Shown here one piece after another: positions 29,653 through 63,267 of a DNA stretch of 64,000 nucleotides; positions within the stretch are counted from its first letter, which is position 1; the number at the start of each line of letters is the position of its first letter. A model generated the notes under the pieces. It ran no database searches and was not told the DNA's origin. It saw only the letters and a list, made by a program, of their open reading frames with translations. Source of the stretch: a virus; the IMG/VR virus record IMGVR_UViG_3300009376_000001. One strand, written 5' to 3'. Both the position numbers and the translations under genes were made by a program.

Positions 29653-29904
29653 CTATCTAAATTCTTCAGGCACATTCGCTGCCCTAAAATCAGCAATAAC
29701 CTCTGCTGTATGTACCGCCCTTGCTACATTCTGTACGGTAGCATCTTCACCACTTACATCAGCACCAGGAACAATTACATGTCTGTGGTAGGTTCTCGAT
29801 ATTTCCACACCATCTTTTTCTATAATCGTGTCAGTTCTGACTTGTATCTGTCCGTCAGGTAGAACCTCACAGGAACCAGTTATTGTTTTTTCTTCTAATG
29901 CCAT
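29653..29904 (-). CDS. Small fibre-associated protein
   Basis: IQVR...I.KDG.EISR.YHRHV..P motif, following the LDDYEEG-type fibre. Confidence 0.6.
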   Translation of the reverse strand: MALEEKTITGSCEVLPDGQIQVRTDTIIEKDGVEISRTYHRHVIVPGADVSGEDATVQNVARAVHTAEVIADFRAANVPEEFR

Positions 29905-36600: not shown

Positions 36601-36816
36601 TTAATGCCATCCCAAAGCAACACCAGTAATAGTCAAAGTGCCATTACCAAATGTAATTAGATCCGTATCAGCAGCCAATCCCATAGTAGTGGCACCGACA
36701 AGAATAGTAGAATCTTGAATCTGATTCCCACCGGTCCCATTCCAACGAACTAGAGCAGTACTAGTGCTACTCCCTGGAACTGTAAAAGGTGGTGCATGTG
36801 CTATTGCTGTAGGCAT
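36601..36816 (-). CDS. Minimal fibre-anchor protein (N-module only)
   Basis: 71 aa homologous to the N-terminus of 28775..29623; AGGAGG RBS. Confidence 0.6.
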   Translation of the reverse strand: MPTAIAHAPPFTVPGSSTSTALVRWNGTGGNQIQDSTILVGATTMGLAADTDLITFGNGTLTITGVALGWH

Positions 36817-54269: not shown

Positions 54270-55574
54270 TTAGGCGTTCAGGTCAGTAATCTTGGCGTGT
54301 GCGTCCAAACGCAAGGATCGTAGTTCACCGATGGTGTAGAACAATCCACGAAGGACGAATGCGTTTGCCTGGAAGAAGTCTCGGTTGTCGATATACTGCG
54401 TAGGAGCAGCAATAGCGAGTTCCAAGTACCGTGTATCCATGACATAGACATTGCTACCAAGGTTAGCATCTGCAGCCGTGAACGAACCCTGAACATCAGG
54501 ATCGACAATGACTGGGATACCCCTATAAGTAGCCACCTGGAAGCCAGCGTGGGAACCTGGAAGAGTGGATTCGTCGCCGACTTTGACAACAAATTCGCCC
54601 CAGTCCAGATAACGTTGCTGAGCTTGCAACAGGGAAGATAGACGGTCAAACTGGTCATAACCCATCAGAATTACGTCAGGGTCAGCACCGTTTACACGAA
54701 CTTCACGAATGGCCTGGTCTAGCAGGGCCAACGTGAGGTTACGCCCAGTACCACTATTACCAAGAACGGTAGCAGCAGCATTGTGCGCTCCAGCAGCACG
54801 AGTAGTTTGGTTATATACGTCTACGCCGTTAGTAACAGTCACGCCAGCTACGACACGAGCATCTTGTTCGACGATGTCGTCAAGAGAAGTGAAGCCAGCA
54901 CGGCTCTTTACATAAACAATCTCACCGTCAGTCAAGTTTCCGCCACCTGTCCAAGTAGCGTCACTCTGAGCGTCAAGACCGCTATAAGTAAGAGCAGTAT
55001 CACCGATGGTGGTTCCACCGAAAGTGTCACCAACACGGAGAGTGTTACCAGCGGAGATTATTTCACCAGTACCAGAGGCACCAGCAGTCGAGGCGATGGT
55101 CATCGAGCGAAGCAGGAGTTCCTGGTTCAACTCTTTTATGTGGTCCCTAGCAGCAGCTTCTTGCTCAACTGCCAGGTTGTCCCCCATACCACCTTCCAGA
55201 CCGCTCATGATCTGGGACTTGAGTGAGACACCGAAGTCAGTAGCTACGATACGAGGAGCAGAGTCCACGTTGACGTAATTGCTGACATCGACAGTGGGAA
55301 GCGCACCAGTTTCAGTTACGGGACGGGAACGGCTATCGCCCCTATCTGACCGCAAACGCCAACCAGTGGTGGGTCCCCATTGTACTTTCCGAAGAATGTT
55401 CCAAAATCGTGTCTGGTTGTTCAATGCGTCCCAGACTTTACGTCCGTAAGTTGCAGTGAACACATCTGATACCTGAAGGTACGTTTGCTTAGCAAAGTAA
55501 CCAGGTGGCATCAGTGAGCTACGCAGATTTCGCTCCGCAGAAGATATATACTGCGCTATGCTTAGATCAGCCAT
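54270..55574 (-). CDS. Major capsid protein (HK97 fold)
   Basis: Protease-scaffold-MCP order; YG.KVW..LN, E.G.LP, PDVILM, VATYRGIP and GEL motifs; high-expression codon bias. Confidence 0.85.
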   Translation of the reverse strand: MADLSIAQYISSAERNLRSSLMPPGYFAKQTYLQVSDVFTATYGRKVWDALNNQTRFWNILRKVQWGPTTGWRLRSDRGDSRSRPVTETGALPTVDVSNYVNVDSAPRIVATDFGVSLKSQIMSGLEGGMGDNLAVEQEAAARDHIKELNQELLLRSMTIASTAGASGTGEIISAGNTLRVGDTFGGTTIGDTALTYSGLDAQSDATWTGGGNLTDGEIVYVKSRAGFTSLDDIVEQDARVVAGVTVTNGVDVYNQTTRAAGAHNAAATVLGNSGTGRNLTLALLDQAIREVRVNGADPDVILMGYDQFDRLSSLLQAQQRYLDWGEFVVKVGDESTLPGSHAGFQVATYRGIPVIVDPDVQGSFTAADANLGSNVYVMDTRYLELAIAAPTQYIDNRDFFQANAFVLRGLFYTIGELRSLRLDAHAKITDLNA

Positions 55575-56680: not shown

Positions 56681-59593
56681 TTATCTAGGTCGTAAACTTG
56701 AATCAAACTCTAATTCTTTAATGTTATAACATTCTGGACAAATCATAGGATCTGGTTTTTGTATGATATCTGTAATATATGATTTAGGATTCATTGGAGT
56801 AACACACAACGTTACTTCATAAATCTCCAAATCAGTTACTTCCGTCCAACATTTACCATGTTCACAAATAGTTTTCTTATCTTTTGCATTACCTGCAATA
56901 GAAAATCCTCGCATTCCGCCTTTTAAGACCTCAGCCATAGCTTTTCTAGAAACTTCTAAATCAGTTCTAAACGCTGCAACCACAAACAGTCCTTCAGGTC
57001 GAACCTCGGTTTTCCATTCTTTCCCCGTGGCATCTACAAATCTACGTAGAATTTGACCAACCTGGATGCCCGAATGGAAAATGTTCATATTGGCAAATTC
57101 TTTTTTACCTAAGAATTTATTCATAGCCCGTCGCATGCCATCCAAACCAATACGATGACCTTCACGGTCTACAATATAATAATTACCCCATCCAGCAACC
57201 ACTAAAGTACGACCTGTATCCATTTTTTGAATGGAATTCTCAGTTAATACTTTAAACGCTTCATGCTCTCCCAAAGATTCTGGCGTATCACCCTTACCTA
57301 ACACATAGCTACCTAAATCTTGAGACAATAACGCCAAATTGGTGTATTGTTCCGCTGCATTATCATTAATACTGCGTAATCGATGGTCTTCATCTATAAA
57401 TTGTCTAGTAGCTCGTTCATGTTCTGGTTTCTGAGATATTGCCGTAGGAGCATATGCTTCTTCATCGTCAGCAATCACATAACTACTAGCTTGATCTAGT
57501 CCAATAGGCTGCTGTTCTTTCGGAATTTGATGTTCCTGATCTGAAGCTCTTTGCTCCGCATCATCATCTTCGGAATCTCCAGGCTTATGTCGCTCTACAG
57601 AACGAGGAGGACGAGTATTATCATCAGATGGATATGGAAGTTGAGATACACCTTCATAAGATCCAGCATCCATTGAGTCTTTCAATTGTAAAGCTGAATT
57701 ATATTTACGTTCTCGTCCAGTACGTCCACCATGTGTAGCGGTATGAGTTGCATCTCCTCCGCTTCCTCCAGTGGACATAGCAGTACCTCCACTAAATCCT
57801 CCACCGCCTCCGTCGCCTCCAGCACCTCCGCCTCCACCTGCGCCACCTCCGCCCCCACCTTCTTTCAAAACAGGAGTACGATTAATAGGCTTTAAATTAG
57901 AATCATAATCAGATTCTAAATCGGTATCTGTAGCATCAGCAGGAGCAATCATGGTAACACTGCCATCACCTCCGCCTTCAACCCCCTCTCCGCCCGTACC
58001 ACCAGAAGCTTTCGTATTTACATCTACTCCATCAGTTTCTTCAGGAGAAATATCTATAACAGCACCAGATGAAAAAGCTTGTGTTCCTGTACCAGTTTCT
58101 GCACTGGAAAGAGCTTCTCGTCCATCCTCATCAGGATCAATAGGCTTTTGAGCATCCCTTTCATTATTAGCATATGCCTTCATAGCTAAGGAGGATTTTT
58201 TATTTTCCTCCTCTTCTTTTATCCGACGATAATGCTGAGAAGAAGCCATTGTTCCGTCATTTAAAGCTTCAGGATCGTCTACGCCTAATCCACCTTCATT
58301 AGATTGCTTTTGTATAGGCTTAGAAGGAACCCGACCTTCATCTATATCTGAATATTCCAGATTTTTAAAGTTATCATGTTGAGCTTTAATACGACTCGGA
58401 ACGGTAGCAGTGCCTAATTGATTAGGTTTACGGTCATTTTTATTTGATTGCTGGATGCCCTGATCATCATCTCCTGTGCTGAAAGAAGAAGTTGCTCCCT
58501 CAACAACATTACCAACTGCACTGCCAATACCTGATGCAACAGCCCCGACTCCACGAGCTACTCCTCCAGCAATTGCACCCAAAGCAGGAAGAATCTTTTC
58601 TATTTCTTGTCCACGGACCTGATGAAGCTTATCTTGCCCCTCTACATCATCGCCTTCTTTAAGCTTTACTTTATTAGGAGTAAATACATCCCCAACAGAA
58701 CTAAAAGGATCTCCTAAATCAGAAACATCTCGCTGTTTACTAAAAGCGAACCATTCTCCATCTTGTTGAGTTAATCTAATCTCAACTCCGCCAGCATCAG
58801 CATTCTTAACTAAGAAAGCAAAACCTTCTTCCGCATCATTAGGAATATATTCCCGCATGATAACGTTAGGTTTCTTTTCATCAGTTTTATAATTAGCAGG
58901 ACTCTCTAAATCTTCGTCACTGGTATAGATAAGGTCACGTACATCTTTTTGTACGCCCTCTATTTCTTCTTCTTTATGTTCTCCGGCTTCCCACGGCTGT
59001 TCAGAAACTTCTGCCCATTTTTCGTTCCTCTCAGCCATAGGTACAGGCTTAAAAAGATCACAATACATCTCTTCTTTGACAGGAAGGTCTATCTTTGTAC
59101 AATATCCGCCTGCAGCAAAAAAGATACAGGTATGACATTCTTCAGCTTCTTTCTCAGAAGGACGATAATTAATAAAATCTAAAACGTCTAAATTACTACG
59201 ATTATGTTTAATTAGGTTGAGAAAACTCTCTTCAGAAAATTCTTTAACTAATTCAATACCATCTAAAGACGAAGCTAAATGATCATGTCCTATAGCTGCT
59301 AGCATATCCCTAACATGGTCATTACGTGCCTGAAGAATTTCCCTTAACGCAGCAAAAGAAGGATCAGAACCTTTCTCTTCATCGTCATGAATCTGAGCAA
59401 CTTGATTATAAAATACAGAAGCTGCTTTCTCCCCATCAGGACCAGCATAAAGATTATTTCCGTCTAGACGCACAAAAAACACATCATTATGATGTGCTAA
59501 TTCCACAGCATGGGATTGATCTTGATAAAGACTGAGGATATCAATATCCTCTAATTCTTTTATTAATGCATCTAAAGCGTTTAAGTCAGTCAT
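56681..59593 (-). CDS. Prohead protease (HK97/S78-like) with ~790-aa N-terminal extension
   Basis: C-terminal VAGW..VDREGH.I, N..H...QVG, GFSIAG and EVTL...P.NP catalytic motifs. Confidence 0.85.
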   Translation of the reverse strand: MTDLNALDALIKELEDIDILSLYQDQSHAVELAHHNDVFFVRLDGNNLYAGPDGEKAASVFYNQVAQIHDDEEKGSDPSFAALREILQARNDHVRDMLAAIGHDHLASSLDGIELVKEFSEESFLNLIKHNRSNLDVLDFINYRPSEKEAEECHTCIFFAAGGYCTKIDLPVKEEMYCDLFKPVPMAERNEKWAEVSEQPWEAGEHKEEEIEGVQKDVRDLIYTSDEDLESPANYKTDEKKPNVIMREYIPNDAEEGFAFLVKNADAGGVEIRLTQQDGEWFAFSKQRDVSDLGDPFSSVGDVFTPNKVKLKEGDDVEGQDKLHQVRGQEIEKILPALGAIAGGVARGVGAVASGIGSAVGNVVEGATSSFSTGDDDQGIQQSNKNDRKPNQLGTATVPSRIKAQHDNFKNLEYSDIDEGRVPSKPIQKQSNEGGLGVDDPEALNDGTMASSQHYRRIKEEEENKKSSLAMKAYANNERDAQKPIDPDEDGREALSSAETGTGTQAFSSGAVIDISPEETDGVDVNTKASGGTGGEGVEGGGDGSVTMIAPADATDTDLESDYDSNLKPINRTPVLKEGGGGGGAGGGGGAGGDGGGGGFSGGTAMSTGGSGGDATHTATHGGRTGRERKYNSALQLKDSMDAGSYEGVSQLPYPSDDNTRPPRSVERHKPGDSEDDDAEQRASDQEHQIPKEQQPIGLDQASSYVIADDEEAYAPTAISQKPEHERATRQFIDEDHRLRSINDNAAEQYTNLALLSQDLGSYVLGKGDTPESLGEHEAFKVLTENSIQKMDTGRTLVVAGWGNYYIVDREGHRIGLDGMRRAMNKFLGKKEFANMNIFHSGIQVGQILRRFVDATGKEWKTEVRPEGLFVVAAFRTDLEVSRKAMAEVLKGGMRGFSIAGNAKDKKTICEHGKCWTEVTDLEIYEVTLCVTPMNPKSYITDIIQKPDPMICPECYNIKELEFDSSLRPR

Positions 59594-59602
59594 TAACTAA
59601 AG

Positions 59603-60790
59603 TCATCCTATACTTGGTTGGATGGCACGTTGTGTGGGAGCCGATGGACTAGAACCCCCAAATAGCGGAGCATGACGTGCGCCTGTCTCTCTCATTGCGG
59701 TAGCTTCATTTACATTACCAGGAAGAGCACGTGATCCTCCGCCTGGAGTCATAGCATAGACCTGCTCGCCTCCCGTCTGCTTCTCTATTCCCTCTTGTTC
59801 AGGAGACTCCTGAACATTATGAGAGGGTCATTTATCGCAGTCTTCGTCTTCAGGACCTGTCTCCAGACCATCGGCAGACATGCCCAAACCATCTATGGCG
59901 GAGCCTCCACTACTATTAGGCATCATTTCCAAATCTTGAGAGACAGCGTTAGCTTTTTCCACCGACAAAAAATCAGATAATTCAAAAACATCTGGCTCAT
60001 AGTATAGGAAGGCGGATAAAAAGGCAGGTTCGTTCACTGTATCTATACTTTTCGCTATATTCATACTAGATTCCCACCAATCTTTAGTAGGACGTGTCGA
60101 TCGATTTGTTAGCATCTGATGAACTATTGTTCCTTCGACCAAATCTTCTGCATTAATACTTTCATCTAAATCAAATGATTTTAAAATACTAATATCATCA
60201 ACTAAAGCAGTATCGCCATCCTGTTTAGGCAATACACGATCCACGGAACCCCAAATTTTCAGAATATCAATAGATTTAGCATGAGTACGGACTACAGAAC
60301 TCACAAAATCATTTGATTTTGTAACATCATTCGTCTCATCTTCGTCATCTTCAGTAGTAGCGTATCGATTTAAAAAGGGTTCAGCAATACTGGATTCAGA
60401 ATTTTCCTGCTCATGTCTCTCTAAGTTAGTATTCTGATCATATTCCCCTTTTTCTACATCATCACCTTGAATCTTTGAAGATATTTTATCTCCAATAGCT
60501 TCTCCAATAGCAGGAGCAGCTGCTCTAGCTACTGTACCCATTAAGCCAGATTTCTCTACTTCGTTTTCAGACTGATAAGGATCATCCCCGTTAGTACTAT
60601 CCACATTTACATGCACAGACGGAGCTTTAGCAGGCTGGTGGTCTGACGTATGCCAGTGCATAACATCAGGACACCAATGGTCAGCCTCAGGCAATTCATC
60701 TTCGGTCTTCTGCAAATGCGAAGACTCAATAGAATCAATCATTAAATGTAGGCCATTTACGAAATCTAAATCAGCTTGGGACTGCGTCAT
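59603..60790 (-). CDS. Putative head internal protein; candidate selenoprotein (in-frame TGA at 59828-59830, CDK-U); 320 aa if TGA terminates, 395 aa if read through
   Basis: Frame open for 74 codons past TGA, ending 9 nt before the protease ATG; SECIS-like hairpin; the extension carries the family GIEK motif. Confidence 0.65.
59790..59827 (-). promoter_or_regulatory. Bacterial SECIS-like hairpin 1
   Basis: UGA-CCCUCU-CAUAA-UGUUCAGGA-GUC-UCCUGAACA-AGAGGG. Confidence 0.65.
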
Positions 60791-61097
60791 TTTGCCAAAC
60801 CTCCGGCGGTGCCACCAATATCACAGGTGGATGATATGCATTACAAAGATGATAAATAGTAGAAGACGATGCTTCTCTCATAGCCATTATCTTGAATACT
60901 TCAAATAATTCAATATCCACAAATTGTACTGCTGGGCCATCAACACCTACATCAATCGCTGCCCAACGATTTGGATAATTCTCAATTAAATCAGACCTAT
61001 TGCTCAATAACCATTGCACATTTGCTGACCGATTAATTTCAACTTCTGCTTTCATTTTAGCCTTACCTATCTCCTTCCTTACCTTTGACAAAACCAT
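60771..61097 (-). CDS. Hypothetical protein, DUF5678-like
   Basis: N..WL..N...L...YP..W.AI pattern. Confidence 0.45.
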   Translation of the reverse strand: MVLSKVRKEIGKAKMKAEVEINRSANVQWLLSNRSDLIENYPNRWAAIDVGVDGPAVQFVDIELFEVFKIMAMREASSSTIYHLCNAYHPPVILVAPPEVWQNDAVPS

Positions 61098-61111
61098 ACC
61101 TTACCTTACCA

Positions 61112-61537
61112 TTACCCAAGATATTCTTGATTATAAGAATTTAAAGACTGTAGTCCAGGATCTGGACACGTATTATTTATCGGTGTCGAATTCTTAGGAA
61201 TATAATATTTATTAGTCGCATCTAAAAATCGTTCATATAAATAATACCAAAGATTCTCAGAAAATTCCTCTACTGTACAACCACGTGTTTGAGCATCTCG
61301 TCCGGCTTCTGCCTTCCAACGTTCTAAAACTCGTAATTTCCAATCATTAAAATCTAAATTATATGAGTTCTTTGGTTCAATAACTTTACCTGGCGTAGGC
61401 ATACGAGTTTCTCCATAGCCTCCTACGTCAGCATAATAAAAATCATCAAACGCATCCCATAATGCGTCTTGAAATTCATTGTAATTATGGAATTGTCTAG
61501 AAACAACTAATCCAGGCTGATGCTTAGTCTGTTTCAT
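61112..61537 (-). CDS. Hypothetical protein
   Basis: 141-aa aromatic-rich ORF. Confidence 0.6.
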   Translation of the reverse strand: MKQTKHQPGLVVSRQFHNYNEFQDALWDAFDDFYYADVGGYGETRMPTPGKVIEPKNSYNLDFNDWKLRVLERWKAEAGRDAQTRGCTVEEFSENLWYYLYERFLDATNKYYIPKNSTPINNTCPDPGLQSLNSYNQEYLG

Positions 61538-61675
61538 TTACGGCTCTATAGGAGCTATTTTCTCTATTTGGTTTGGACACCAACGAGCAGGCTCAAAATT
61601 AGGTTCCGGATCCGGCTGAATCCGTGGATTCGTCTTTGGTACTACTGTCGGTTTCGTCTTCGGTGATGTTGGCAT
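61538..61675 (-). CDS. 45-aa proline-rich protein (not in the ORF track)
   Basis: MPTSPKTKPTVVPKTNPRIQPDPEPNFEPARWCPNQIEKIAPIEP; AAGGAG RBS; stop abuts the next ATG. Confidence 0.65.
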   Translation of the reverse strand: MPTSPKTKPTVVPKTNPRIQPDPEPNFEPARWCPNQIEKIAPIEP

Positions 61676-62051
61676 CTATCTCTATCTCCTTAGCAAGGAA
61701 TTTATATAGTTTTAATTTTAAATCGTATCCCGCATCTGATCCTGTTCCCCAACGAAAAGTCGTAGGAACAATAGCTAACAGTGTTCTTGCTAAAAATTCA
61801 TCAATGGGCAAAGACTCAGTAAGTGAAGAAATCTGAGTAGGTTGCCCTTTCTTTTGTCTAGTTAAAGAACTAATTCCTCTCCAAACATCATATCTAAAAG
61901 ATGACCAATTGGTGACTAAATCTTCTAGAGGAGCATTCGGTATTAGTCCTGAGCCAGAACACATAACCCAATCCAAAAGAAGAAGCTCTTCTTCTGTAAC
62001 CGTAATGTTTTCTACAACTGGAAGTTCCCAGCCGTCATCCCCTAGTACCAT
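61599..62051 (-). CDS. Hypothetical protein
   Basis: 150 aa with GAGG RBS; acidic tail overlaps the proline-rich ORF. Confidence 0.6.
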   Translation of the reverse strand: MVLGDDGWELPVVENITVTEEELLLLDWVMCSGSGLIPNAPLEDLVTNWSSFRYDVWRGISSLTRQKKGQPTQISSLTESLPIDEFLARTLLAIVPTTFRWGTGSDAGYDLKLKLYKFLAKEIEIDANITEDETDSSTKDESTDSAGSGT

Positions 62052-62055
62052 ATAC

Positions 62056-62088
62056 TACCTCGCATGCCTACGGCAGCTAAATACCGCC
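62056..62088 (-). promoter_or_regulatory. Bacterial SECIS-like hairpin 2
   Basis: UGA-GGCGG-UAUUU-A-GCUGCC-GUA-GGCA(U)GC-G-AGGUA. Confidence 0.5.
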
Positions 62089-62631
62089 TCAAGCAGCTTC
62101 TAAATGACTTGGATCGCCTTTTTTATGCTTACATTTAGCACGAGATTGTTTATCCAAATATCTATTAATTAACGTAACAGGGTCAGCAGATCGATTAAAA
62201 CCGCCTTCCTGTGGGCCATAGGTCGCAAATGAAGCAGCAGATGGACCCGTACTGCCTCCCCCTGATCCCGGCTGTGAGGTAGCATGGATACCCATTGAGC
62301 CGCCACCAGGAGCACTACCCCAATTAGTAGTAGGAGCCTGATATACAGTACCAGAACGTCCAATAGTGCCTGAAGCTCCTACTGCCCCACACATATTCTG
62401 AGTACACGCTTTGCCTATTTCAGAGCCTTTTTCATGCCCACAAGGAAAAGTATGTTCATGTTTTTCTACATAACCATCGATAGCTTTCTTAATTAATGAA
62501 ACTATCATAGATTTAGACGCAAAATCACTAAGCTTGTCTTCACTCATGCTAGTTTTAGTCTTCTTACCAGCACGAGCACGAGCAAGCTCAGCACCCATAA
62601 ATCGACGTTGTTTCTCTGATTTAGCTGGCAT
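62077..62631 (-). CDS. DUF3008-like head-cluster protein; candidate selenoprotein (TGA at 62089-62091, ends ...AA-U-GGI)
   Basis: N-terminal MPAKSEKQRRFMGA...MSE..L.DFA; TGA aligns with Cys of an internal CxHxKG repeat; 180 aa if TGA terminates. Confidence 0.6.
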
Positions 62632-63267
62632 TTATCCTTGATAAGACCAAGAGCGAGAACCTTCTTCTAAATCATCACTCTTAAGTATTTTACGAGAAGC
62701 TACATCACTAGTAGGAGTACGAGGAGGTGTCAAAAAACGTTCACCTGTCTCAGTGTCTACCGCATGTCCCATCTCACTCTGATGGCCTTCACCGATATTA
62801 GTTTTAGCCTCTTCCTCATCGGCAGCACTCATCATGCCATGAGCTTGTGAAATTTTTCTAGATTCCGGCGGGCCTGAGCGATTCCGTTTGAAATCAGGAG
62901 CCATCTTCGGAGATCTAACACCACGTGTCTCGCTACCCATCTGAGCGTCATATGGCTCTTGCAAATGACCATATTCCGCATCGTAGTCAGTTTCTTTCTC
63001 TACATATTGTTCAATGGCTTTGATTAAAGTAGCTTCTTCCGACTCATCATCAGAGAGAACTATTACAGGCTGTTGAGAAAGAATCGGAGAATCATAATTA
63101 TTAGTTGCGCCCTTTACAGGCTCCAATATCTGATCTTTAAGACCAGGTTCTCCTTTAGGAGAATAAATATCAGTAACAGCTAAACGATTCATACCGCTGT
63201 AATCACCGATACGAATCTTGTCATCCGCCACTTCGGGAAAATCCTTCCTTCCTTTAAAATCAGGCAT
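62632..63267 (-). CDS. Acidic head-cluster protein
   Basis: Start re-called at MPDFKG (GGAGG RBS); LIKAIEQYVEK motif shared with 62077..62631. Confidence 0.6.
   Translation of the reverse strand: MPDFKGRKDFPEVADDKIRIGDYSGMNRLAVTDIYSPKGEPGLKDQILEPVKGATNNYDSPILSQQPVIVLSDDESEEATLIKAIEQYVEKETDYDAEYGHLQEPYDAQMGSETRGVRSPKMAPDFKRNRSGPPESRKISQAHGMMSAADEEEAKTNIGEGHQSEMGHAVDTETGERFLTPPRTPTSDVASRKILKSDDLEEGSRSWSYQG

What the first reader, a model, noticed from the sequence alone, without database searches (positions are those of the whole stretch)
59603..60790. Candidate phage selenoprotein 1: CxxU codon plus SECIS-like hairpin in a head gene
Seen: the 320-aa ORF ends ...EDEDCDK-TGA, but the same frame stays open for 74 more codons (PSHNVQESPEQEGIEKQTGG...IQPSIG). 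These fill the 234-nt gap to the protease gene in an otherwise densely packed genome. The TGA completes a C-D-K-U (CxxU) motif. Directly 3' lies a 38-nt hairpin: 6-bp lower stem, 5-nt bulge, 9-bp upper stem starting 11 nt after UGA, and loop GUC. The extension contains GIEK, the same hydrophobic-X-K motif repeated throughout this protein. Established: bacterial Sec insertion uses a hairpin just 3' of UGA (E. coli fdhF: upper stem 11 nt downstream, G-U in the loop), and CxxU is a common selenoprotein motif. Inference: the phage uses host SelB/tRNA-Sec to make a Sec-containing virion protein. I know of no characterised phage structural selenoprotein.
Basis: partly seen in the sequence, partly recalled or inferred. 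Interest (0 to 1): 0.95.

Follow-up and report, generated by a model that had tools for sequence, protein, structure and literature searches.

The report
Conserved recoded UGA in phage head gene
A family of ocean and groundwater bacteriophages always ends one head gene with a UGA stop codon followed by a co-evolving RNA hairpin, and translation evidently continues past it, most likely by inserting selenocysteine, which I could not find reported for any phage particle protein.

Summary
The minus-strand ORF 59831-60790 ends ...CDK-TGA. The frame stays open for 74 codons up to the protease gene. A 38-nt hairpin follows the TGA (-20.9 kcal/mol, z -4.2).

Comparative data show the stop is decoded on purpose:
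- In 62 related loci (42 distinct contexts, down to about 27% identity) the codon is always TGA, never TAA, TAG or a sense codon.
- In the marine subfamily the frame stays open for 62-81 codons. It evolves as coding sequence and almost never has a start codon before its conserved [IVL]EK motif.
- The hairpin shows compensatory changes in 5 of 8 pairs.
- Loop motif (G[G/U]) and UGA-to-loop spacing (16-24 nt) fit the published bacterial SECIS consensus.
- A Cys sits 2-3 residues upstream in most lineages.
- A second conserved TGA with a hairpin lies 2.3 kb upstream.

Against selenocysteine:
- No homologue has Cys at this position.
- The host is unknown.
- No Sec machinery is phage-encoded.

My odds are about 0.9 for programmed UGA recoding, about 0.5 for selenocysteine and about 0.33 for hairpin-assisted near-cognate read-through.

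Unchecked notes from this scan list similar UGA-plus-hairpin candidates in other, unrelated phage genomes. I found no published report.

The parts
59831..60790 (-). Codons 1-320 of the head-module gene. The product has a disordered acidic N-terminal half, a confident helical domain at about residues 157-280, and a disordered acidic tail ending C318-D-K.
   Evidence: ORF list and translation. 99 homologues without any Pfam domain. AlphaFold model with pLDDT >80 only for residues 157-280, and no fold match in PDB or BFVD.
59837..59839 (-). Cys318 codon (TGC), 3 residues before the UGA. It is invariant in the marine subfamily and in the short-protein subfamily, and is encoded by either TGT or TGC.
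   Evidence: Invariant C318 in alignment A1 and invariant C166 in A6. Synonymous TGT/TGC variation.
59828..59830 (-). In-frame UGA (codon 321), the recoded stop.
   Evidence: TGA in 42 of 42 distinct homologous contexts from 62 loci. The next base is C in 17, A in 14, G in 10 and T in 1.
59790..59827 (-). SECIS-like hairpin: lower stem 59822-59827/59790-59795, bulge 59817-59821, upper stem 59808-59816/59796-59804, loop GUC 59805-59807.
   Evidence: Fold -20.9 kcal/mol, z -4.2. The upper stem is conserved with 95.8% of cells paired and 5 of 8 pairs showing compensatory changes. Loops are GUC, GGA or AGUUG, and UGA-to-loop distance is 16-23 nt in 26 close relatives.
59606..59827 (-). 74-codon read-through extension (residues 322-395). 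It contains the GIEK motif (59780-59791) and the conserved block L-P-x-x-V-N-E-A-T-A-M-R...H-A-P-L-F-G (59657-59725).
   Evidence: Open in frame for 62-81 codons in all complete marine relatives. Purifying selection, with close pairs at pS 0.23-0.32 against pN 0.01-0.05. No in-frame ATG/GTG/TTG before the conserved xEK motif in 21 of 23 distinct loci.
59603..59605 (-). Terminal stop (TGA) of the extended product, 10 nt before the next gene's ATG.
   Evidence: In relatives the extension's stop abuts or overlaps the next start, for example TAATG or TAAATG.
56681..59593 (-). Downstream gene: a 970-aa protein with a C-terminal prohead-protease-like domain. It probably processes the [IVL]-E-K sites.
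   Evidence: phrog_23555 head maturation protease, E 5e-5, residues 797-939. Peptidase_S78 (weak) in a distant relative's orthologue. The processing role is inferred.

Best explanation
The UGA at codon 321 is a programmed recoding site. Most ribosomes probably terminate there and give the 320-residue protein. A fraction decode the UGA and make a 395-residue isoform. The hairpin that begins 11 nt downstream sits at the mRNA entrance when UGA is in the A site. I take it to be a bacterial-type SECIS that recruits the host's SelB with Sec-tRNA(Sec), so residue 321 would be selenocysteine next to the invariant Cys318 (C-D-K-U). The extension carries one more copy of the [IVL]-E-K motif that recurs in the protein body. 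These motifs are probably cleavage sites for the prohead protease encoded by the next gene. If so, the long isoform would be processed into a Cys/Sec-containing peptide and a conserved C-terminal peptide inside the head. What is shown: conservation of UGA, translation of the extension as part of the same frame, hairpin covariation, and fit to the bSECIS consensus. What is inferred: the identity of the inserted residue, dependence on SelB, the isoform ratio, the protease processing, and location in the virion.
For: (1) TGA occurs in 42 of 42 distinct contexts (62 loci), spanning marine and groundwater relatives down to about 27-35% identity. Only 10 of 61 ORFs in the window end in TGA. (2) The extension is coding. 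It is 62-81 codons long, always in frame, with pS well above pN, a conserved xEK motif and NE..R block, and no usable start codon upstream of them. (3) The hairpin covaries: 5 of 8 pairs have double changes, 95.8% of cells pair, and slid controls pair in 34-52%. (4) It fits the bSECIS consensus quoted in PMC13188914. Loops are 3-5 nt with G[G/U] at loop positions 1-2 or 2-3 in all 26 close and 15 distant contexts (GUC, GGA, AGUUG, GGGA, CGUG, AGUUA, UGUA, CGUGA, GUU, GUG, GUA). UGA-to-loop distance is 16-24 nt. None of 59 other ORF ends in the window qualifies. (5) Cys lies 2-3 residues upstream and is invariant in two subfamilies, with synonymous TGT/TGC variation. Cys or His lies within 6 residues of the UGA in 40 of 42 contexts. 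(6) Distant lineages keep TGA and the hairpin although the extension is only 1-11 codons before a back-up TAA/TAG. That is hard to explain if only a longer isoform mattered, and easy if the inserted residue itself matters. (7) A second gene 2.3 kb upstream has the same design: conserved TGA, three codons with third-position variation, then a covarying hairpin with loop GUA 17 nt after the UGA. (8) The phage is a bacterial virus. Most genes have GGAG-type Shine-Dalgarno sites. The window encodes RecA, RuvC, DnaG-type primase, DnaB-like helicase and PolA. A relative carries a long-arm bacterial-type tRNA-Tyr.
Against: No homologue has Cys or any sense codon at the UGA position, although nearly all known selenoprotein families have Cys forms (PMC13188914). 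This holds for 42 distinct DNA contexts, 99 and 42 protein hits, and a search for fused forms. The Cys-to-UGA spacing varies (CxU and CxxU), and some distant lineages have no nearby Cys. The UGA lies in a predicted disordered acidic tail, not in a folded redox site. The UGA-to-loop distance varies in steps of 3 nt. Several distant hairpins are weak, at -1.8 to -4.6 kcal/mol. The host is unknown, so its Sec machinery could not be checked. No tRNA-Sec, SelB or SelD was found in five related viral contigs, and no tRNA in the window. No Rfam SECIS family matched, but those models are lineage-specific. The family spans several habitats, so all its hosts would need the Sec trait.
Confidence: 0.5

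Rival explanations
1. Programmed stop-codon read-through without selenium. UGA, the leakiest stop, is occasionally decoded by a near-cognate tRNA (Trp, possibly Cys or Arg). The hairpin at the mRNA entrance slows the ribosome or hinders RF2. The result is a fixed minority of a C-terminally extended head protein, as in Qbeta A1.
For: UGA is conserved absolutely with no sense-codon variant, as expected when a fixed short-to-long ratio is the selected trait. U follows the UGA in only 1 of 42 contexts, which suggests weak termination contexts. The site is in a disordered tail. The extension carries its own conserved domain and a protease-site motif. This mechanism makes no demand on the host's Sec machinery, which suits a family found in several habitats. 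In-frame back-up stops 1-11 codons after the UGA in distant lineages indicate a leaky stop.
Against: To my knowledge no bacterial read-through is known to depend on a downstream hairpin. This model does not predict a loop motif G[G/U] kept across about 10 different loop sequences. It does not explain the invariant Cys 2-3 residues upstream. It also does not explain why lineages with 1-5 codon extensions, or the second site with a 3-codon extension, keep UGA and the hairpin rather than a tight stop.
Confidence: 0.33
2. The UGA is an ordinary terminator. The hairpin is a regulatory or stabilising element between this gene and the protease gene, for example controlling translational coupling. The downstream frame is then either a separate small gene or untranslated.
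For: In distant relatives the hairpin lies in a 31-44 nt intergenic spacer just before the Shine-Dalgarno site and ATG of the next gene, and the in-frame extension is only 1-11 codons. The window has an internal ATG that could give a 49-aa product.
Against: This model does not explain why the stop is TGA in 42 of 42 contexts. In the marine subfamily the conserved xEK motif and flanking residues lie upstream of any in-frame start codon in 21 of 23 distinct loci, and the first possible start is as late as codon 39-49 in some. The extension is always in the same frame as the upstream gene and is under purifying selection. The GGGAGG upstream of the window's internal ATG lies about 16 nt away, outside the spacing of about 6-10 nt seen in the window's other genes. 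Back-up stops are closer than expected by chance.
Confidence: 0.07
3. The phage or its host reads TGA as a sense codon throughout (genetic code 4 or 25), or the TGA is an assembly or sequencing error.
For: The frame is open across the TGA.
Against: Nine other ORFs in the window end in TGA with short extensions, and no other long ORF is interrupted by an in-frame TGA. Neighbouring genes of relatives use TAA, TAG and TGA. The TGA is present in 62 independently assembled loci and in two contigs of the same sequence.
Confidence: 0.02

Closest known systems
Bacterial selenoprotein genes with an in-ORF SECIS read by SelB (prototype E. coli fdhF; bSECIS consensus as summarised in PMC13188914)
   Same: An in-frame UGA with coding sequence on both sides. 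A hairpin starts about 11 nt after the UGA. The small apical loop begins G[G/U], and UGA-to-loop spacing is 16-24 nt, within the 16-37 nt consensus. A Cys lies close to the UGA. The same design recurs at a second gene in the same genome.
   Different: It is encoded by a phage, in a head-module gene of unknown fold. The site is in a disordered C-terminal tail rather than an enzyme active site. No Cys-containing homologues exist. The Cys spacing varies (CxU or CxxU). The Sec machinery of the host is unverified.
Qbeta coat-protein read-through (A1 protein; UGA leak giving a minor C-terminally extended structural protein). Cited from my own knowledge, not from a tool.
   Same: A UGA at the end of a structural gene, with an extension in the same frame. 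The presumed outcome is a minor longer isoform built into the particle.
   Different: Qbeta is an ssRNA phage. To my knowledge its read-through is not known to need a downstream hairpin with a conserved loop motif. Here relatives with 1-5 codon extensions also keep the UGA and the hairpin.
Programmed frameshifts that give C-terminally extended phage structural proteins (T7 gene 10A/10B, Listeria phages A118/PSA capsid and tail proteins, tail chaperone G/GT). Cited from my own knowledge; general review PMC5009743 appeared.
   Same: Recoding near the end of a virion gene, stimulated by downstream RNA structure, yields two isoforms with a shared N-terminus.
   Different: There is no frame change and no slippery sequence here. 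The signal is a stop codon.
Viral selenoproteins of eukaryotic viruses. The abstract of PMC8310308 states only that in a few viruses a UGA is redefined as Sec; the examples, the glutathione-peroxidase homologues of molluscum contagiosum and fowlpox viruses, are from my own knowledge.
   Same: A virus relying on host Sec machinery to decode UGA.
   Different: Those are captured host enzyme genes with eukaryotic 3'-UTR SECIS elements. This is a phage-specific structural-module protein with a bacterial-type in-ORF hairpin.

Membership tests
Bacterial selenoprotein gene (Sec-UGA + bSECIS) | In-frame UGA with conserved coding sequence on both sides | tested here: met
   62-81 in-frame codons in the marine subfamily, under purifying selection, with no upstream start codon.
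Bacterial selenoprotein gene (Sec-UGA + bSECIS) | Stem-loop downstream of the UGA: 3-9 nt apical loop and 4-16 bp upper stem | tested here: met
   Stems of 5-11 bp and loops of 3-5 nt in all 41 contexts examined. Covariation in 5 of 8 pairs.
Bacterial selenoprotein gene (Sec-UGA + bSECIS) | G in one of the first two loop positions, usually G[G|U]N | tested here: met
   Loops are GUC (20), GGA (5) and AGUUG (1) in close relatives. Distant relatives have GGGA, CGUG, AGUUA, GGA, GUC, UGUA, CGUGA, GUU, GUG and GUA. Consensus taken from PMC13188914.
Bacterial selenoprotein gene (Sec-UGA + bSECIS) | 16-37 nt between the UGA and the apical loop | tested here: met
   16-24 nt in all contexts and 20 nt in the window.
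Bacterial selenoprotein gene (Sec-UGA + bSECIS) | Folding energy of -7.5 kcal/mol or lower | tested here: inconclusive
   The window meets it: -20.9 for the whole element and -11.1 for the upper hairpin. Close relatives range from -5.7 to -13.8 and distant ones from -1.8 to -13.2 for the hairpin alone.
Bacterial selenoprotein gene (Sec-UGA + bSECIS) | Homologues with Cys (TGT/TGC) aligned to the Sec codon | tested here: not met
   None among 42 distinct DNA contexts. No fused or longer form in the 5.8-billion or 1.84-billion protein searches.
Bacterial selenoprotein gene (Sec-UGA + bSECIS) | Decoding organism has selA, selB, selC (tRNA-Sec) and selD | not testable with these tools
   No genome is held for the window. 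There was no hit in representative prokaryote genomes. No tRNA-Sec, SelB or SelD was found in five related viral contigs, one of them rated complete.
Bacterial selenoprotein gene (Sec-UGA + bSECIS) | Selenium actually incorporated at the UGA | not testable with these tools
   Needs 75Se labelling or mass spectrometry.
Programmed stop-codon read-through (Qbeta A1 type) | Conserved leaky stop followed by an in-frame functional extension | tested here: met
Programmed stop-codon read-through (Qbeta A1 type) | Decoding by a near-cognate standard tRNA, independent of SelB | not testable with these tools
   Needs protein chemistry or genetics.
Stop-codon reassignment (genetic codes 4/25, recoded phages) | TGA used as a sense codon throughout many genes and not used as a terminator | tested here: not met
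   10 of 61 ORFs end in TGA, and this is the only long same-frame continuation across a TGA in the window.
Prohead-protease-processed head internal or scaffold-like protein | Gene in the head module next to the protease, with repeated cleavage-site motifs and largely disordered sequence | tested here: inconclusive
   The gene lies directly upstream of the protease-domain gene, two genes before the major capsid protein. The motif [ILVF]EK[SGAQT] occurs 4 times here and once in the other 19,500 residues. The model is mostly disordered. Cleavage itself was not tested.

The most novel reading that the evidence does not exclude
This is a widespread family of bacteriophage head proteins that are true selenoproteins. 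Host SelB reads a phage-encoded SECIS, placing Sec beside an invariant Cys (or His) in a C-terminal tail. A second Sec site lies in a neighbouring DUF3008-like head protein. Virion assembly or function in these ocean and groundwater phages would then depend on the host's selenium metabolism.
Probability: 0.5. Interest if true: 0.9.

Novelty: new variant of a known kind. Interest (0 to 1): 0.8.

Why it matters
Programmed recoding in tailed phages is known almost entirely as frameshifting. A stop codon that is conserved and decoded, with a covarying hairpin, in a head gene of a dsDNA phage family would be a new recoding case whichever residue is inserted.

If the residue is selenocysteine, this would be the first phage particle selenoprotein family that I could find any trace of. 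Four literature searches returned none. It would link phage morphogenesis to host selenium status. It would give a host-range marker, since only Sec-decoding bacteria could serve as hosts. It would also be a selenoprotein family without Cys homologues, which Sec/Cys-pair searches cannot find.

The site is directly testable with reporters, 75Se labelling and proteomics. Gene callers currently truncate the protein at the UGA in every database entry I saw.

Tried and rejected
- **Global TGA reassignment:** rejected. Other genes terminate at TGA and no other ORF is interrupted by one.
- **Sequencing error:** rejected.
- **Independent small gene from the internal ATG:** rejected as the main route. 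By contrast, two other 'open' gaps after TAG stops, at 29653-29904 and 36601-36816, are ordinary small genes with their own ATG.
- **Phage-encoded suppressor tRNA or tRNA-Sec:** none in the window or in ten related viral contigs. The only tRNA found is a tRNA-Tyr in a 95.6-kb relative.
- **Phage-encoded SelB or SelD:** none in the five relatives searched.
- **Rfam scan of 59500-62700:** no SECIS or other credible family.
- **GenBank phage tblastn with the read-through product:** no hit.
- **Representative prokaryote genomes:** no relative, so no host clue.
- **Structure prediction and Foldseek against PDB and BFVD:** no match with E-value of 0.001 or lower.
- **Pfam and PHROGs on the protein:** nothing.
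- **Archaeal host:** I considered this because the capsid protein's nearest GenBank relatives are haloarchaeal tailed viruses at 31% identity. I rejected it because of the bacterial replication genes, the Shine-Dalgarno sites and a relative's long-arm tRNA-Tyr.
- **Locus search with one alignment of all distant homologues:** it was too divergent to run, so I split it into three.
Full report
**1. What is in the sequence**

All genes in the window lie on the minus strand. The ORF 59831..60790 (320 codons) ends ...E-D-E-D-C-D-K and is followed by TGA at 59830..59828. The same frame stays open for 74 more codons (59606..59827) to a second TGA at 59605..59603, 10 nt before the ATG of the next gene.

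It has a 6-bp lower stem, a 5-nt bulge, a 9-bp upper stem starting 11 nt after the UGA, and a GUC loop. The element is 38 nt long (59790..59827). Its MFE is -20.9 kcal/mol against -9.6 +/- 2.7 for shuffles, giving z -4.2.

The window has 40.5% G+C. Its 61 larger ORFs end in TAA 33 times, TAG 18 times and TGA 10 times. The other TGA-terminated ORFs run only 1-27 codons further, and no other long ORF is interrupted by TGA. TGA is therefore not reassigned genome-wide.

**2. Context**

The next gene downstream (56681..59593, 970 aa) has a C-terminal prohead-protease-like domain (phrog_23555). Then come a 338-aa protein and the major capsid protein (PHROG major head protein, Pfam SU10_MCP).

The window also encodes class II ribonucleotide reductase, PolA, RecA, RuvC, a DnaG-type primase and a DnaB-like helicase. 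Most genes have GGAG-type Shine-Dalgarno sites.

A 95.6-kb relative carries a tRNA-Tyr with a long variable arm, which is the bacterial type. So this is a bacteriophage, even though the capsid protein's nearest GenBank relatives are haloarchaeal tailed viruses at 31% identity.

No genome is held for the window, and no relative was found in representative prokaryote genomes. The host is unknown.

The protein has no Pfam or PHROG family. AlphaFold gives a confident helical domain only for residues ~157-280. The rest is modelled as disordered, including the acidic tail that bears the UGA. Nothing in PDB or BFVD resembles the model.

**3. The stop codon is conserved as TGA**

A protein search found 99 homologues, all from marine or other environmental metagenomes. 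Nearly all end ...DCD or ...DCDx.

I fetched DNA for 47 loci from IMG/VR and metagenomes. I then fetched more distant relatives found with HMMER against 1.84 billion representatives.

In total 62 loci, giving 42 distinct sequence contexts, contain the end of this gene. The stop is TGA in 42 of 42. There is no TAA, no TAG and no sense codon. The following base is C (17), A (14), G (10) or T (1).

These relatives go down to about 27-35% identity and come from the mesopelagic ocean and from groundwater. With TGA closing 16% of this phage's genes, this cannot be chance.

**4. The downstream frame is translated as part of the same protein**

In every marine relative whose contig reaches far enough, the frame stays open for 62-81 codons and ends at or beside the start of the protease gene. 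One natural variant (L040/L041) stops after 10 codons.

The extension aligns as protein. It has an [IVL]-E/D-K motif 13-17 residues after the UGA. It also has a conserved block...P-x-x-[VIM]-N-E-x-[ST]-x-x-R... Close pairs show pS 0.23-0.32 against pN 0.01-0.05.

In 21 of 23 distinct loci there is no in-frame ATG, GTG or TTG before the conserved xEK motif. In some loci the first possible start is codon 39-49. The window's internal ATG (the 49-aa ORF) lacks a well-spaced ribosome-binding site. So the extension can only be made by decoding the UGA.

The motif [ILVF]EK[SGAQT] occurs four times in this protein, at residues 78, 112, 277 and 335, the last of them in the extension. It occurs once in the other ~19,500 residues encoded in the window. 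This ties the extension to the body of the protein. Given the protease gene next door, I read these as maturation cleavage sites. That reading is an inference, and a first-stage note on the neighbouring window made a similar suggestion.

**5. The hairpin is real and looks like a SECIS**

An alignment of 26 sequences (24 distinct rows) anchored on the hairpin shows 95.8% of cells paired. Five of 8 pairs have compensatory double changes, for example CUCAGAAG/CUUCUGAG, CUGCGAAG/AUUCGCAG and UCUUCGAA/UUCGAAGA. No shuffle reached the observed score, and slid controls pair in only 34-52% of cells.

The published bacterial SECIS consensus (PMC13188914, Fig. 2 legend) has four requirements:
- a 3-9 nt apical loop on a 4-16 bp stem;
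- G in one of the first two loop positions, mostly G[G|U]N;
- 16-37 nt between the UGA and the loop;
- MFE of -7.5 kcal/mol or lower.

In the 26 close contexts the loops are GUC (20), GGA (5) and AGUUG (1), and the spacing is 16-23 nt.

In 15 distant contexts a hairpin is again present 17-24 nt from the UGA. Its loops are GGGA, CGUG, AGUUA, GGA, GUC, UGUA, CGUGA, GUU, GUG and GUA. All have G[G/U] at loop positions 1-2 or 2-3, but seven of these hairpins are weak, at -1.8 to -4.6 kcal/mol. None of 59 other ORF ends in the window has such an element.

About ten different loop sequences keep the same two-base motif. That points to a sequence-specific reader such as SelB rather than a simple roadblock.

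**6. Residues around the UGA**

Cys lies 2 or 3 residues before the UGA. It is invariant in the marine subfamily (C318) and in a subfamily of 141-239-residue proteins that are only 32-35% identical to each other. It is encoded by both TGT and TGC, so it is selected as an amino acid.

Other distant lineages instead have H-x-H-K-x before the UGA. Several short extensions end in His (...SGKH, KVGH, PHSH, SNHNH, TH). Cys or His lies within six residues of the UGA in 40 of 42 contexts. The His pattern could partly reflect an RNA-level CAYUAR motif, so I treat it as suggestive only.

Lineages with only 1-11 extension codons still keep TGA, the hairpin and a close in-frame back-up stop. The UGA is therefore evidently leaky or decoded in these lineages too. 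What is conserved there is the codon and its neighbours, not a long extension.

**7. A second site**

The DUF3008-like 180-aa gene 2.3 kb upstream (62089..62631) ends ...H-L-E-A-A, then TGA. The TGA is kept in all 12 relatives that cover it. It is followed by GGN-GGN-AT[T/G]-like codons whose variation is mostly at third positions, then by TAA or TAG.

A hairpin with an invariant GUA loop lies 17 nt after the UGA. Three of its 7 pairs show compensatory changes and 90% of cells pair. A conserved three-residue extension makes little sense for plain read-through but is natural for a near-C-terminal Sec.

In a distant relative (L055/L059/L060) the corresponding protein has ...A-C-A-D-TGA followed by a strong hairpin (loop GGU) and 36 in-frame codons. 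The end of that extension matches the uninterrupted protein of L061/L062. However, a GTG directly after the TGA leaves re-initiation possible there.

**8. Weighing the mechanisms**

I consider it about 90% likely that the UGA is decoded on purpose. For selenocysteine specifically, these points count in favour:
- the hairpin's geometry and loop motif;
- the neighbouring Cys or His;
- the short-extension lineages;
- the second site.

These points count against:
- There is no Cys-containing homologue at all, which is unusual for selenoproteins.
- The Cys spacing is variable.
- The site is in a disordered tail.
- Some hairpins are weak.
- The host is unknown.
- No Sec genes or tRNA-Sec were found in related phage contigs.
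- All hosts of a widespread family would have to decode Sec.

Absolute retention of UGA is what a fixed two-isoform ratio would select, under either mechanism. I put selenocysteine at about 0.5. Hairpin-assisted near-cognate read-through is at about 0.33. An ordinary stop with a regulatory hairpin is at about 0.07. Reassignment or error is at about 0.02.

**9. Novelty**

Four full-text searches found no report of a phage-encoded structural selenoprotein or of UGA read-through in a dsDNA phage head gene. The 2026 review of prokaryotic selenoproteomes does not mention phages.

This scan's own unchecked notes list comparable UGA-plus-hairpin candidates in other, unrelated phage genomes. I treat those as leads, not as support.

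Every database protein of this family that I saw, other than truncated fragments, is cut at the UGA.

Noticed in passing
window 62047-62631 (minus strand); TGA at 62089-62091, hairpin about 62062-62078: A second conserved recoding-like site. The DUF3008-like 180-aa gene ends HLEAA-TGA. It is followed by three codons (GGN GGN ATT-like, varying mostly at third positions), a TAA or TAG, and a covarying hairpin with an invariant GUA loop 17 nt after the UGA. TGA is kept in all 12 relatives that cover the site. This is first-stage note e1-5763162.
   Followed up: partly
L055:700-880, L059:500-680, L060 (same region); compare L061/L062:560-681: In a distant relative the DUF3008-like protein has ...A-C-A-D-TGA, then a very stable hairpin (GUGCCGCC-GGU-GGCGGCAC) 14 nt downstream and 36 in-frame codons. 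The end of that extension (IDSYLSRYG) matches the uninterrupted orthologue of L061/L062. A GTG directly after the TGA could instead allow re-initiation.
   Followed up: partly
window 59606-60790 (minus strand), residues 78, 112, 277 and 335: The motif [ILVF]-E-K-[SGAQT] occurs four times in this protein and once in all other ORFs of the window. These are probably prohead-protease cleavage sites. First-stage note e1-5763154 proposed similar LxK sites elsewhere in the genome.
   Followed up: partly
L040:3108-3141, L041:3087-3120: A natural variant of the marine subfamily in which the extension stops after 10 codons (...SSGH-TAA). The TGA and the hairpin are kept.
   Followed up: no
window 29653-29904 and 36601-36816 (minus strand): Two other gaps whose frame is open after a TAG stop are ordinary small genes with their own ATG. 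The 71-aa one repeats the N-terminal motif of the neighbouring tail-fibre-like proteins.
   Followed up: yes
L072:1498-1585 (IMG/VR contig IMGVR_UViG_3300008216_000009, 95.6 kb): The only tRNA found in any relative is a tRNA-Tyr (GUA) with a long variable arm, the bacterial type. This is a small clue that the family infects bacteria.
   Followed up: yes
window 54270-55574 (minus strand): The major capsid protein matches Pfam SU10_MCP. Its only GenBank phage relatives are haloarchaeal tailed viruses (HCTV-5, HVTV-1) at about 31% identity over 38% of its length, although the rest of the genome looks bacterial.
   Followed up: partly
L048:2473-3504, L051:2436-3459, L052:1848-3014: In distant relatives the large protease-containing gene near this one carries a NUDIX domain. 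It is the next gene in L052 and follows one intervening small gene in L048/L051. The window's 970-aa orthologue has no Pfam hit.
   Followed up: no
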